The position numbers are program-made. DNA of 64,000 nucleotides from assembly GCF_054482525.1 (NCBI RefSeq), contig NZ_CM137006.1; one strand, 5' to 3'. Positions 52,001-55,000 of the stretch are shown one piece after another; position 1 is the stretch's first letter, and every line of letters starts with the position of its first letter.

Positions 52001-55000
52001 GCTGTGTCCGCACGCTCGGGAGGAGATGCCAGACAGCGTGCTTTGTGCGGGCTATCAGGCGTTTTATTCTTACTCTGCGCCGCATATGCGGGTGATGCGT
52101 GATCTGATAAAGCAGCATCGTTCTCCCATGGAGCTGATGACGATGCTGCGGTGACGTGAGCTTAAACGGGCTGCCCCTGATGCGACATCCGCGTCGCCAG
52201 CGGTAGCCAGCACAGCACGATCAACAATCCCATTAAGGTCATCAACAACCCCAGGCTGCCCTGACCGGTTTGCGGCAACATCGCAGAGAGCGACGCCAGC
52301 ACGCCGGAACCAATGTTTTGTAGACCGCCGACCAGCGCGCCAGCCGTGCCCGCCAGGAAAGGGAACGGCTCCATCGCGCCGCTGGTCGCCAGCGGAAACA
52401 GCATCCCGGCACCGAAAAAGAACAGCGCGGCGGGAACGAGCAGCGTCCAGACATTCATCACGCCAAACCAGTCGGGGATCCACATCAGTAAGCCAGCCAG
52501 CAGGCAGCAGATAACCGACTGCCACATCAACGTTGAGAAGCGTTTATTAGGACGTCCGGCAAACCATGCCCCAAAAAATGCCGCCGGAATCGGCAGAATA
52601 AACAAAATACTGACCGTCATACTGCTCAGCCCTAACACCGCGCCCATCAGCACGCCGGAGCAGGCTTCAAAGGCGGCAATCCCGGCCAGACCGCCAATCA
52701 GCATCAGCAAATAACAGTTAAAACCGCTGTTACCGAAAAGCGTTTTATAACTGGTAAGCAGGCGCGTGCGCGGTGCGTCGACCGGACGTGTTTCCGGCAT
52801 CCAGCGGGCCATACTGAAGGTCACACCGGCGCAAAGTACCAACAAAAAGAGATAACAGGCGCGCCAGTTCCACATCGTATCCAGCAGACCGCCGATTAGC
52901 GGTGCGAGCAACGGACTGACAAGAATCCCCATGTTTAACAAGCTGTTAGCGTGGCGCAACTGTGTCCGTTCATATAAATCACGCGGCAATGTACGCGCCA
53001 TTACACCGCCAACGCCGGTGCCCATCCCCTGCATCGCACTGGCGGCAATCAATACCGTCAAACTGGAGGTCGTGACCGCGACCAGCGTTGCCAGCATAAA
53101 AATGGACATTCCGACGAGGATCACCGGTCGGCGACCCACACGGTCGGATATTGGGCCATAAAACAGCTGTGAGACACCGTAAGTCAGCAGATAAGCGCCC
53201 ATTACGCTCTGCACCGCCCCTTCACGGACGTTGAGATCGCGCGCCATATCGGCAATAGCTGGAATATAAATGGTTTGCGCCATCTGACCGACGGCCACGA
53301 GTAATACCAACATCAATAACAAATTGACGTTTCTATGCCTTTTCATTATCACGGATGCTTTTATAAAAATAATTAGAATAAGTCACTACGCATTCCCATA
53401 AATGCGGGAGAGGAATCTATCACATTGATAAATGTTAGCCAGATATACGCCAGGAATGGGGAATTGTTTAGCGGCAGAATATGTAAACAAAAGCGGCAAT
53501 AAATGTTGCCGGGAGGGATGGTAAGTCGGATAAGATGCGTCAGCACCGCATCCGACACTAACCCGCACGCTAAATATGAAAGGGGAGCGGTTACCCGCTC
53601 CCCTTTAGTGCGACTTGAATCTGAATTACTTCAGGTATTTCAGAACAGCATCAAGCAGTTGCAGTGCTGCAACAATGAGTTTGAGGATAAGAATGGCGAT
53701 ATCCACCAGGCTCATACGCGTCTCCTGTGGTTCAGGAGCACTGCCAGCTGACGTACCTTTCCGCTGCCTGTTGCCAGCTGTTGTGCACGCGGTATCTCAA
53801 GGAGAAACGTTGTGCTCGTTGACATAACACAGTGTGCTCACGCGGGGTTAAGGCGCTGACGGCACCACCCGTTTCAGCCAGGACTTAGTGCGCCGGGTAA
53901 CGATGCGGCCCCCGCATAACACATTGCGTACAGTGATATTATAGAAGTTTACTGTATAAATAAACAGTAATATTTGGACAAAACGCAAACTGTGATCGAT
54001 ACTCAACTATGCACTAAATACGTCAAAATTCGTGCCGAAATTGCGCGTTCTGCGCGGAACACGTATACTTTCTGTGTTGACATAATACAGTGTGCTTTGC
54101 GGTTACCAGCCGCGGGCGGCTGACGAAACCTCGCTCCGGCGGGGTTTTTTGTTACCTGCAGTACAGTACAAAACGTGATCAACCCCTCAATTTTCCCTTG
54201 CTGAAAAATTTTCCATTGTCTCCCCTGTAAAGCTGTGCTTGTATAAATATTGTTAAACACAAAACCAACAAGGTCCCCAATGACTACTTCCATGTTCAAC
54301 GCAAAACTACTACCAACTGCGCCATCCGCCGCAGTGGTCGTCGTGCGTGTGGTGGTGGTCGTCGGCAATGCGCCGTAGGGACTGGAACAACACACGATTC
54401 CAAAACCCCGCCGGCGCAAACCGGGCGGGTTTTTTCGTTTAAGCACCTCCCGGAAAGTCGGCCCAGAAGAAAAGGACTGGAGCATGGCAAGTTCGGGCAC
54501 AACATCAACGCGTAAGCGCTTTACCGGCGCAGAATTTATCGTTCATTTCCTGGAACAGCAGGGCATTAAGATTGTGACGGGCATTCCGGGCGGTTCTATC
54601 CTCCCTGTTTACGACGCCTTAAGCCAAAGCACGCAAATCCGCCATATTCTGGCTCGCCATGAACAGGGCGCGGGGTTTATCGCTCAGGGAATGGCGCGCA
54701 CCGACGGTAAACCGGCGGTCTGTATGGCCTGTAGCGGACCGGGTGCGACTAACCTGGTGACCGCCATTGCTGATGCGCGGCTGGACTCCATCCCGCTGAT
54801 TTGCATCACTGGTCAGGTTCCCGCCTCAATGATAGGCACCGACGCCTTCCAGGAAGTCGACACCTACGGCATCTCTATCCCCATCACCAAACACAACTAT
54901 CTGGTCAGACATATCGAAGAACTCCCGCAGGTCATGAGCGATGCCTTCCGCATTGCGCAATCAGGCCGCCCTGGCCCGGTGTGGATAGACATTCCTAAGG

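What the first reader, a model, noticed from the sequence alone, without database searches (positions are those of the whole stretch)
53626..54150. tisB/istR type I toxin-antitoxin locus with its LexA box is present and intact
The 29-aa TisB toxin ORF, a consensus LexA box (53950..53969) and an IstR-1-like small RNA region are all readable. The istR region and the tisAB 5' region share the near-identical stretch ttgacataa(c/t)acagtgtgct, which is the expected basis for antisense pairing. This is a known system, recorded for completeness.
Basis: partly seen in the sequence, partly recalled or inferred. Interest (0 to 1): 0.3.

Follow-up and report, generated by a model that had tools for sequence, protein, structure and literature searches.

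The report
Known tisB/istR toxin-antitoxin locus, intact
This stretch is the well-studied E. coli tisB/istR-1 toxin-antitoxin locus, complete and essentially identical to the laboratory reference. It is an ordinary, already explained feature.

Summary
The window is E. coli chromosome. The finding lies between emrD and ivbL-ilvB, where K-12 carries tisB/istR.

- **Toxin:** a 29-aa TisB ORF (53626-53715, minus strand) passes the NCBIfam and Pfam TisB cut-offs.
- **Small RNA:** Rfam istR scores 147.5 bits (cut-off 45). The K-12 annotation maps without indels to IstR-2 at 54011-54150 and IstR-1 at 54078-54150.
- **LexA box:** TACTGTATAAATAAACAGTA (53950-53969) is identical to K-12's box and is the only such site in 64 kb.
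- **Repeat:** the 21-nt direct repeat (53818-53838 and 54076-54096, one C/T difference) gives an IstR-1/tisAB-mRNA duplex about 100 nt upstream of tisB.

Sixty-six Enterobacteriaceae species genomes carry a TisB homologue. In the 59 with both repeat copies (60 loci with the window), a sharply bounded 22-bp complementarity is maintained, with compensatory changes.

Differences from K-12 are minor. TisB N2S is the published majority allele. Two U-A to U·G changes lie in an IstR stem.

The mechanism follows the literature: LexA-repressed toxin mRNA, activating 5' processing, and IstR-1 blocking a ribosome standby site and triggering RNase III cleavage. It was not tested for this strain.

Verdict: already known, low interest.

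The parts
53573..53931 (-). tisAB (tisB) primary transcript; both ends inferred
   Evidence: +1 is placed at the G 7 nt downstream of the TATAAT box. A 359-nt RNA, the length reported in PMC2577331, then ends at 53573, just after the terminator hairpin and U-rich tail. The ends are inferred, not measured in this strain.
53579..53606 (-). tisAB terminator hairpin (perfect 12-bp inverted repeat, 4-nt loop)
   Evidence: Inverted repeat I3, 100% complementary. It forms in all mRNA folds.
53626..53715 (-). tisB coding sequence, 29 aa, N2S allele relative to K-12
   Evidence: ORF list. NCBIfam NF011340 69.9 bits and TIGR04459 61.5 bits; Pfam PF13939 37.6 bits. One base differs from K-12, AAC to AGC. 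RefSeq names it TisB, WP_000060506.1, in an identical locus.
53721..53726 (-). tisB Shine-Dalgarno AGGAGA, predicted to lie in secondary structure
   Evidence: Sequence read; it matches the RBS of PMC11264685 Table 1. The mean unpaired probability of the SD-to-AUG stretch is 0.17-0.19 in all three mRNA forms.
53712..53825 (-). tisA ORF (37 codons); probably not a real coding gene
   Evidence: ORF list. No Pfam or NCBIfam match. It is absent from the current K-12 annotation. Its ATG lies inside the IstR target and is ACG or ACA in 44 of 60 loci, and the frame length is not conserved.
53818..53839 (-). IstR-1 target, the published ribosome standby site in the tisAB 5' UTR (+93 to +114 by inferred numbering)
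   Evidence: Direct repeat D2; duplex energy. 22 pairs are kept in 37 distinct sequence combinations, while the flanking positions are mostly unpaired. The inferred +106 RNase III end, 53826, falls inside it.
53887..53906 (-). 5' UTR stretch holding the inferred +42 processing site (53890) and the published 20-nt uxaA-antisense sequence
   Evidence: Exact match to GCATCGTTACCCGGCGCACT (PMC2577331). The +42 coordinate comes from the inferred +1.
53938..53943 (-). tisAB promoter -10 box TATAAT
   Evidence: Sequence read; named as the tisAB -10 in PMC11264685 Table 1.
53950..53969 (.). LexA box TACTGTATAAATAAACAGTA
   Evidence: Unique in the window, none in shuffles. Identical to K-12. The literature gives the tisB box a heterology index of 1.81 (PMC5668327). 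A CTG-N10-CAG box sits at the equivalent place in the other Enterobacteriaceae loci with enough upstream sequence.
53975..54003 (+). istR-2 promoter (-35 TGGACA, 17-nt spacer, -10 GATACT)
   Evidence: The only promoter-like site the scan found. It matches PMC11264685 Table 1.
54011..54150 (+). IstR-2 (140 nt, SOS-induced long form)
   Evidence: K-12 annotation mapped through the indel-free alignment. Rfam istR covers 54021-54150. Three base differences from K-12.
54041..54069 (+). istR-1 promoter (-35 TTGCGC, -10 TATACT), lying inside IstR-2
   Evidence: Sequences read; they match PMC11264685 Table 1.
54078..54150 (+). IstR-1 antitoxin RNA (73 nt by the K-12 annotation; the 5' end may be 54076)
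   Evidence: K-12 annotation mapped. In the fold, the 5' 10-12 nt are single-stranded, followed by a stem-loop and a terminator hairpin (54125-54148) with a U run. A37G and A42G relative to K-12 turn two U-A pairs into U·G.
54076..54097 (+). Antisense stretch of IstR complementary to the tisAB 5' UTR
   Evidence: Repeat D2; pair counts. In this window the duplex has 20 Watson-Crick pairs and 2 G·U pairs (54086 with 53828, and 54097 with 53839).

Best explanation
This is the chromosomal tisB/istR-1 type I toxin-antitoxin locus of E. coli, complete and in its usual place between emrD and ivbL-ilvB.

**How it works (from K-12 literature, not tested here).**
1. LexA binds the box at 53950-53969 and represses the leftward tisAB promoter.
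2. After DNA damage LexA is cleaved and a transcript of about 359 nt is made.
3. This primary transcript cannot be translated, because the tisB ribosome-binding site is buried in structure.
4. Removal of the first 41 nt exposes a single-stranded ribosome standby site about 100 nt upstream of tisB.
5. 30S subunits load there and reach the start codon.
6. The 29-aa TisB peptide inserts into the inner membrane, collapses the proton motive force and promotes dormancy and persistence.

**The antitoxin.**
- IstR-1 is constitutively made from the rightward promoter.
- Its free 5' end pairs with the standby site over about 21-22 nt, blocks ribosome loading and triggers RNase III cleavage to an inert +106 mRNA.
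- The longer IstR-2 is SOS-induced and reported not to repress.

**Shown here:** the identity and integrity of every sequence element, the complementarity and its conservation.

**Inferred from K-12 work:** LexA binding, the RNA ends, processing, standby loading, RNase III cleavage and toxicity in this strain.
For: **Identity and annotation**
- The region is 100% identical to RefSeq E. coli loci annotated as tisB.
- It is 99% identical to K-12 without indels, and 53818-54072 is fully identical.
- The K-12 IstR-1 and IstR-2 annotations map cleanly.
- Rfam istR scores 147.5 bits over the full model. TisB passes the NCBIfam and Pfam cut-offs.

**Regulatory elements**
- The LexA box is unique in the window and not expected by chance.
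- All published promoter and RBS hexamers are present.

**Pairing**
- The 21-nt repeat gives a -38.8 kcal/mol duplex, against -16.8 +/- 2.6 for shuffles.
- With +1 at 53931, the 359-nt length fits the terminator, and +106 (53826) falls inside the duplex.
- Folding shows a free IstR-1 5' end, with unpaired probability about 1.0 over the first 10-12 nt. The same stretch is sequestered in IstR-2 (0.29), and the tisB SD-AUG is buried (0.17-0.19).

**Cross-genus conservation**
- A degenerate tisB pattern found 66 species-representative genomes, all Enterobacteriaceae, and each hit is a 29-aa TisB homologue.
- 59 of them, making 60 loci with the window, carry both repeat copies 237-258 nt apart, with a CTG-N10-CAG box between them in every one.
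- All 20 loci tested contain Rfam istR.
- The 22 central pairs are kept in nearly all of 37 distinct sequence combinations, while the flanking positions pair in only 9-15 of 37.
- Three positions change on both sides: G-C 20 versus A-U 15 at one, and single cases at two others.
- Partners slid by 1-3 columns drop pairing from 87% to 21-47%.

**Literature for the mechanism**
- PMC6690012, PMC4147584, PMC5668327, PMC11264685, PMC2577331.
Against: - Nothing argues against the identification.
- No expression, LexA-binding or toxicity data exist for this strain, and the RNA ends are transferred from K-12.
- Thermodynamic folding reproduces the published +1 to +42 switch only weakly. The mean unpaired probability of the target rises from 0.32 to 0.43. 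The +1 MFE fold does pair the 5' end with +84 to +105.
- The two copies of the pairing stretch are direct repeats. Gene conversion could therefore contribute to their co-variation without selection for pairing.
- A few loci carry A·C mismatches at 3-4 positions.
- The sequences in the pair count are related, so the shuffle control is not a probability.
Confidence: 0.97

Rival explanations
1. The locus is recognisable but functionally decayed in this strain. It would be a remnant whose toxin, antitoxin or LexA control no longer works.
For: - There are several differences from K-12: TisB N2S, IstR A37G and A42G, a T for A at 54073 between the istR-1 -10 box and its start, and C for T at 53817 next to the target.
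- About 20% of complete E. coli genomes lack the locus altogether, so it is dispensable.
Against: - N2S is the majority allele, found in 85% of E. coli, and is at least as toxic as the K-12 peptide (PMC11264685).
- Both IstR changes keep the stem paired, as U·G pairs, and match the Rfam consensus.
- All promoter, RBS, LexA and pairing elements are unchanged.
- The exact sequence recurs in many independent isolates.
Confidence: 0.02
2. The 21-nt repeat is a chance or purely historical duplication. IstR would control tisB, if at all, by some means other than pairing at this site.
For: - Similarity between the two regions does not extend beyond the core. Flank alignments score no better than shuffles, with 153 and 669 of 1000 shuffles reaching the observed score.
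- The two copies are direct repeats, so they could be homogenised by gene conversion.
Against: - No other site in 64 kb comes within 5 mismatches.
- The duplex energy is about 8 SD beyond shuffles.
- The complementarity is kept with sharp 22-nt boundaries across genera whose flanks have diverged.
- There are double-sided changes, and one-sided changes are mostly G·U-compatible.
- Published binding, competition and RNase III data in K-12 used the identical sequences.
Confidence: 0.01
3. tisA (53712-53825), not only tisB, is a functional coding gene of the locus.
For: - The 37-codon ORF is intact here.
- It is reported as more than 99% conserved within E. coli (PMC11264685).
Against: - It has no protein-family match.
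- It is dropped from the current K-12 annotation.
- Its start codon is ACG or ACA in 44 of 60 Enterobacteriaceae loci, and the frame length varies from 12 to 72 codons.
- The ATG lies inside the RNA pairing site, which by itself explains its conservation within E. coli.
- The literature reports no evidence that it is translated.
Confidence: 0.05

Closest known systems
tisB/istR-1 (ysdAB/istR) type I toxin-antitoxin locus of E. coli K-12 MG1655 (b4618, b4616)
   Same: - Same genomic position, between emrD and ivbL-ilvB.
- Same divergent, non-overlapping layout and the same LexA box.
- Same promoters and RBS, and the same 21-nt antisense core.
- Same IstR-1 and IstR-2 nesting and the same terminators.
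- 99% nucleotide identity with no indels.
   Different: - TisB has Ser instead of Asn at residue 2. This is the majority natural allele; K-12 is the minority.
- IstR carries A37G and A42G, giving U·G instead of U-A in the internal stem.
- IstR-2 carries A63T.
- The base flanking the target is C, not T, at 53817. The 22nd pair reported for K-12 (PMC2577331) is therefore a G·U, and it involves only IstR-2.
[quoted passage not shown]
   Same: All have a small hydrophobic toxin and a divergent small-RNA antitoxin that pairs far upstream in a long 5' UTR. All need 5' processing for translation. dinQ is also LexA-controlled.
   Different: The toxins and RNAs are unrelated in sequence. dinQ/agrB does not use ribosome standby (PMC5668327). 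None of these systems was found within the finding's coordinates.
hok/sok (plasmid R1) type I toxin-antitoxin system
   Same: A small RNA antitoxin controls translation of a membrane toxin, with RNase III cleavage of the duplex.
   Different: - hok/sok is cis-encoded and overlapping.
- Sok acts through the mok leader ORF rather than a standby site.
- hok/sok is not LexA-regulated.
- There is no sequence relationship.

Membership tests
tisB/istR-1 type I toxin-antitoxin system | A 29-aa hydrophobic TisB peptide that matches curated TisB models | tested here: met
   NF011340 69.9 bits (cut-off 53), TIGR04459 61.5 bits (cut-off 38), PF13939 37.6 bits (cut-off 25). 28 of 29 residues are identical to K-12.
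tisB/istR-1 type I toxin-antitoxin system | An IstR small RNA (Rfam RF01400) encoded divergently from tisB and not overlapping it | tested here: met
   147.5 bits against a gathering score of 45, full model, plus strand at 54021-54150. tisB lies on the minus strand about 300 nt away.
tisB/istR-1 type I toxin-antitoxin system | About 21 nt of complementarity between the IstR-1 5' end and the tisAB 5' UTR, about 100 nt upstream of the tisB start | tested here: met
   The repeats at 53818-53838 and 54076-54096 differ by one base, which gives a G·U pair. The target lies 102 nt from the tisB ATG. It is conserved with compensatory changes across 60 loci.
tisB/istR-1 type I toxin-antitoxin system | A LexA box at the tisAB promoter, between the two genes | tested here: met
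   TACTGTATAAATAAACAGTA at 53950-53969, 6 nt upstream of the TATAAT box on the tisAB side and 5 nt from the istR-2 -35 box. It is unique in the window and identical to K-12.
tisB/istR-1 type I toxin-antitoxin system | LexA actually binds the box and tisAB is SOS-inducible | not testable with these tools
   This is transferred from K-12, which has the identical box. The literature gives a heterology index of 1.81 and SOS induction.
tisB/istR-1 type I toxin-antitoxin system | Conserved position between emrD and ivbL-ilvB | tested here: met
   emrD at 52162-53352 (minus), ivbL at 54280-54378 (plus) and ilvB at 54484-56172 (plus).
tisB/istR-1 type I toxin-antitoxin system | Processing of the +1 mRNA to an active +42 form, standby-site loading, and IstR-1-dependent RNase III cleavage to +106 | not testable with these tools
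   The sequence from +1 to +114 is identical to K-12. The inferred +106 falls inside the duplex, and the +1 fold pairs the 5' end with part of the target. The predicted accessibility change is modest, 0.32 to 0.43. The experiments are in K-12 only.
tisB/istR-1 type I toxin-antitoxin system | Toxicity of the peptide and its neutralisation by IstR-1 | not testable with these tools
   The N2S allele carried here was shown to be toxic on overproduction in PMC11264685. It was not tested for this strain.

The most novel reading that the evidence does not exclude
This strain's allele set may shift the toxin/antitoxin balance, and hence the SOS threshold for TisB-dependent persistence, relative to K-12. 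The allele set is the more toxic TisB N2S, two U·G-weakened pairs in the IstR stem, and altered bases flanking the pairing site and the istR-1 start. A related minor point follows from the cross-genus data. The tisA ORF would be only a by-product of the IstR pairing sequence. Its ATG is the A-U variant of a pair that is G-C in most genera.
Probability: 0.12. Interest if true: 0.2.

Novelty: already known. Interest (0 to 1): 0.07.

Why it matters
It matters little beyond correct annotation. tisB/istR-1 is the best-characterised chromosomal type I toxin-antitoxin system and a model for SOS-induced persistence and for ribosome standby.

The check does tell us something about this strain. It belongs to the roughly three-quarters of complete E. 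coli genomes that keep a full-length copy. It also carries the majority N2S toxin allele rather than the K-12 one.

The cross-genus comparison made along the way adds modest support for two points. The 22-nt pairing is under selection throughout Enterobacteriaceae. tisA is not a conserved coding gene.

Tried and rejected
1. **Longer IstR/tisAB homology.** RNAduplex reported a 70-nt, -78 kcal/mol interaction. Local alignment of the flanks on either side of the 21-nt core scored no better than shuffles, with 153 and 669 of 1000 shuffles reaching the observed score. The long duplex is an artefact of ignoring intramolecular structure in GC-rich RNA.

2. **Reproducing the +1 to +42 accessibility switch by folding.** Only a weak effect appeared, 0.32 to 0.43. 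This is not used as evidence.

3. **Sub-threshold Rfam hits near the locus.** These were naRNA4 on the REP element, STnc310 on the ivbL attenuator, Termite-leu on the tisAB terminator, and isrL. All are far below gathering scores and were treated as chance or generic hairpins.

4. **A second CTGT-N8-ACAG site at 16929.** Two such sites occur where 0.53 are expected, and 11 of 100 shuffles reach two. It lacks the AT-rich core and was treated as chance.

5. **tisA as a protein.** It has no family match and is not conserved across genera.

6. **Exact-sequence contig look-up for TisB.** This was not possible because the peptide is below the 30-residue minimum.
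Full report
**What is in the sequence**

The region around the finding reads as follows:
- emrD at 52162-53352, minus strand
- a short ORF, ysdE
- a REP-like palindrome
- a perfect 12-bp hairpin at 53579-53606
- a 29-codon ORF at 53626-53715, minus strand
- an overlapping 37-codon ORF, tisA, at 53712-53825, minus strand
- an AT-rich palindrome at 53950-53969
- a GC-rich hairpin followed by a T run ending at 54150
- the ivbL leader at 54280-54378, plus strand
- ilvB from 54484, plus strand

The 29-aa product is MSLVDIAILILKLIVAALQLLDAVLKYLK.

**Checking the observation**

*The toxin ORF.* The ORF passes the curated cut-offs of both NCBIfam TisB equivalog models, at 69.9 bits (cut-off 53) and 61.5 bits (cut-off 38). 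It also passes Pfam TisB_toxin at 37.6 bits (cut-off 25).

*The LexA box.* TACTGTATAAATAAACAGTA differs at 2 of 20 positions from the ideal LexA palindrome. It is the only site in the whole 64-kb window within three mismatches, and none appeared in 100 shuffles.

*The small RNA.* Rfam's istR model (RF01400) matches 54021-54150 on the plus strand end to end. The score is 147.5 bits against a gathering score of 45. It is also the top hit in the whole window.

*The shared stretch.* It is a direct repeat of 21 nt, at 53818-53838 and 54076-54096, with one C/T difference. Nothing else in the window comes within five mismatches on either strand. The two genes are read from opposite strands, so a direct DNA repeat makes the RNAs complementary, and the C/T difference becomes a G·U pair. 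The first 25 nt of IstR-1 pair with the tisAB RNA at -38.8 kcal/mol. Shuffles gave -16.8 +/- 2.6, with a best value of -26.7.

**Identity with the annotated locus**

The 1.1-kb region is 100% identical to several RefSeq E. coli chromosomes. Those records annotate ysdE, tisB, ivbL and ilvB under the match, with emrD just beyond it.

Against K-12 MG1655 the alignment has no indels and 99% identity. The window is base-for-base identical from 53818 to 54072. That stretch contains the IstR target, the tisAB 5' UTR, the tisAB -10 box, the LexA box, the istR-2 promoter and the istR-1 promoter.

Mapping the K-12 annotation gives IstR-2 at 54011-54150 and IstR-1 at 54078-54150.

All hexamers listed in Table 1 of PMC11264685 are present at the expected places:

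| Element | Sequence | Coordinates |
|---|---|---|
| tisAB -10 | TATAAT | 53943-53938, minus strand |
| tisB RBS | AGGAGA | 53726-53721, minus strand |
| istR-2 -35 | TGGACA | 53975-53980 |
| istR-2 -10 | GATACT | 53998-54003 |
| istR-1 -35 | TTGCGC | 54041-54046 |
| istR-1 -10 | TATACT | 54064-54069 |

The generic promoter scan independently picked out the istR-2 promoter, and the terminator scan picked out the IstR terminator.

**Differences from K-12**

There are few differences.

- *TisB residue 2.* It is Ser here, from AGC, where K-12 has Asn, from AAC. According to PMC11264685, Ser is the consensus, found in 85% of E. coli. That paper also reports that N2S is at least as toxic as the K-12 peptide and gives the same ciprofloxacin survival.
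- *IstR A37G and A42G.* These convert two U-A pairs of the internal stem to U·G. The Rfam alignment shows the stem still pairs.
- *Other single-base changes.* One lies at 54073, between the istR-1 -10 box and its start. Another lies at 53817, immediately next to the target.

None of these touches a defined element, so "intact" is justified.

**Transcript ends (inferred)**

I placed the tisAB +1 at the G 7 nt downstream of TATAAT, at 53931. On that numbering:
- The published 359-nt RNA (PMC2577331) ends at 53573, right after the terminator hairpin and its U-rich tail.
- +42 is 53890, inside the published 20-nt uxaA-antisense stretch at 53887-53906.
- The IstR target is +93/+94 to +114.
- +106 is 53826, inside the duplex and one base before the tisA AUG.
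- The tisB AUG is +217.

These numbers agree with the literature, but they are transfers from K-12, not measurements.

**Structure predictions**

- *IstR-1.* It folds into a free 5' tail of 10-12 nt with unpaired probability about 1.0, followed by an internal stem-loop and a terminator hairpin.
- *IstR-2.* The same antisense stretch is largely sequestered, with mean unpaired probability 0.29. This fits the report that IstR-2 does not repress tisB.
- *The tisB RBS.* The SD-to-AUG stretch is buried in every mRNA form, at 0.17-0.19.
- *The +1 to +42 switch.* In the +1 fold the 5' end pairs with +84 to +105, covering half of the target. That helix is lost in the +42 form. The computed gain in accessibility is small, 0.32 to 0.43, so I do not lean on it.

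**Evidence from other genomes**

*Finding the loci.* A degenerate DNA pattern was built to encode the TisB charge pattern (D5, K12, Q19, D22, K26), with T at the second codon position of the hydrophobic residues. It matched only tisB in the window. It matched 66 species-representative genomes, all Enterobacteriaceae. The genera include Escherichia, Salmonella, Citrobacter, Enterobacter, Leclercia, Lelliottia, Klebsiella, Raoultella, Trabulsiella and Siccibacter. Every hit is a 29-codon ORF with ATG at the expected place and an invariant core, LILKL[IM]VA.[LM]QLLDAVLK.

*Conserved layout.* In 59 of these loci, which makes 60 with the window, both repeat copies were found 237-258 nt apart. A CTG-N10-CAG box lies between them in every one of the 60. 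In six of the other seven loci the held sequence stops too close upstream of tisB. The seventh, L060, has an intron insertion between the two genes. Rfam istR was found above threshold, on the strand opposite to tisB, in all 20 loci tested.

*Pair counts.* I counted IstR:mRNA pairs over 37 distinct sequence combinations.
- The 22 central positions are paired almost everywhere, while the positions just outside pair in only 9-15 of 37. The duplex therefore has sharp, conserved boundaries.
- One position alternates between G-C (20 combinations) and A-U (15), with only 2 mismatched. Two other positions each show one double change.
- Four positions vary on one side only, always to G·U.
- A·C or C·A mismatches occur at four positions, in 1-3 combinations each.
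- Sliding the partners by 1-3 columns drops pairing from 87% to 21-47% and removes nearly all double changes.

*Caveats.* The sequences are related, so the shuffle control is not a probability. Gene conversion between the two direct repeats could also contribute to their co-variation.

**Mechanism**

The mechanism is that established for K-12.
- LexA represses tisAB. The literature gives the box a heterology index of 1.81 (PMC5668327).
- The primary transcript is translationally inert.
- 5' processing to +42 exposes a standby site about 100 nt upstream of the structured tisB RBS, where 30S subunits load with the help of ribosomal protein S1.
- IstR-1 pairs across that site, blocks loading and triggers RNase III cleavage to the inert +106 RNA (PMC6690012; PMC4147584).
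- TisB depolarises the inner membrane and promotes persisters.

Shown here are the presence, integrity and conservation of the sequence elements and of the complementarity. Inferred are LexA binding, the RNA ends, processing, cleavage and toxicity in this strain.

**Rivals**

- *A decayed locus.* This is unlikely, because every element is unchanged or carries a majority or structure-preserving allele, and the exact sequence recurs in many isolates.
- *A chance repeat.* This is excluded by its uniqueness in the window, its duplex energy and its conservation.
- *tisA as a real gene.* This is disfavoured.
  - It has no family match.
  - It is absent from the K-12 annotation.
  - Its ATG is ACG or ACA in 44 of 60 loci, with frame lengths of 12-72 codons.
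  - The ATG lies inside the pairing site, which by itself explains why tisA looks conserved within E. coli.

**Dead ends**

- The apparent 70-nt IstR/tisAB duplex of -78 kcal/mol does not reflect real extended homology. The flanks align no better than shuffles.
- Weak Rfam hits near the locus are all below gathering scores.
- A CTGT-N8-ACAG site at 16929 is at chance level.

**Verdict**

The finding is a correct recognition of a known system. The locus is complete at about 53573-54150. It is a normal E. coli allele carrying TisB N2S, and nothing about it departs from the K-12 paradigm.

The only contextual information is its distribution:
- 4358 of 5426 complete E. coli genomes match the locus, 4136 of them over at least 80% of its length.
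- 5420 genomes match the wider region including the flanks.
- About one genome in five therefore lacks the locus.

Novelty: already known. Interest: low.

Noticed in passing
window 53428-53502 (+): The small protein gene ysdE has ATA where K-12 has its ATG start codon. The rest of the 24 codons are identical, and RefSeq still annotates ysdE at these coordinates in an identical strain. An in-frame TTG at 53425 lies immediately upstream and could serve as the start.
   Followed up: partly
window 53823-53825 (-); loci L003-L068: The tisA start codon lies inside the IstR-1 target. It is ATG in only 16 of 60 Enterobacteriaceae loci and ACG or ACA in the other 44. The frame from that position runs for 12 to 72 codons, and in 13 loci it runs in frame into tisB. 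tisA therefore looks like a by-product of the RNA pairing sequence rather than a conserved gene.
   Followed up: yes
loci L004, L006, L007, L019, L025-L029, L033 and others (about 28 nt on the tisB side of the main LexA box): Many non-Escherichia genera carry a second CTG-N10-CAG box, for example CACTGCGAACACCCTCAGTA. These include Enterobacter, Leclercia, Lelliottia, some Klebsiella and some Citrobacter. The box would overlap the tisAB -10/+1 region. The window and other Escherichia lack it; the equivalent sequence is CATTGCGTACAGTGATATTA at about 53922-53941.
   Followed up: no
L060 6450-6675 (-), Klebsiella michiganensis: A group II intron (Rfam RF02005, 180.6 bits) is inserted between the LexA-box region and istR. 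It separates the toxin and antitoxin genes by about 2 kb.
   Followed up: no
window 53626-54150, compared with E. coli genomes: Only 4358 of 5426 complete E. coli genomes match the tisB-istR locus, 4136 of them over at least 80% of its length. In contrast, 5420 match the wider 53400-54500 stretch including flanks. Roughly one genome in five therefore has lost or never had the locus, and some carry up to 4 matching places.
   Followed up: partly
window 53887-53906 (-) and 53646-53661 (-): The tisAB RNA contains two published stretches unchanged from K-12 (PMC2577331). One is the 20-nt stretch antisense to uxaA, which spans the inferred +42 processing site. The other is the 16-nt stretch antisense to dinD, inside the tisB coding sequence. 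Their targets are not in this window.
   Followed up: partly
loci L003-L068 (distance from IstR target to tisB ATG): The spacer between the standby/IstR site and the tisB start codon falls into three length classes. It is about 65-76 nt in most Citrobacter, Enterobacter and Leclercia. It is about 100-105 nt in Escherichia, Salmonella and a few Citrobacter, and 102 nt in the window. It is about 117-135 nt in Klebsiella, Raoultella and one genome labelled Enterobacter. Standby loading would have to tolerate a two-fold range of distances.
   Followed up: no
window 53525-53557: A REP-type palindrome lies between ysdE and the tisAB terminator. It gives a weak, sub-threshold Rfam naRNA4 hit of 24.2 bits against a cut-off of 59.5.
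   Followed up: no
window 54280-54378 (+): The ilvB leader peptide IvbL has Phe instead of Leu at residue 6 relative to K-12. The valine/leucine-rich control region is unchanged.
   Followed up: no
window 23542-23622 (-), 29099-29141 (-), 39271-39343 (+): There are three other Rfam matches above gathering score in the window. They are AsdA, the antisense RNA of dnaA (101.9 bits); the ES036/CssrF sRNA (50.9 bits); and a ROSE_2 RNA thermometer (100.4 bits).
   Followed up: no
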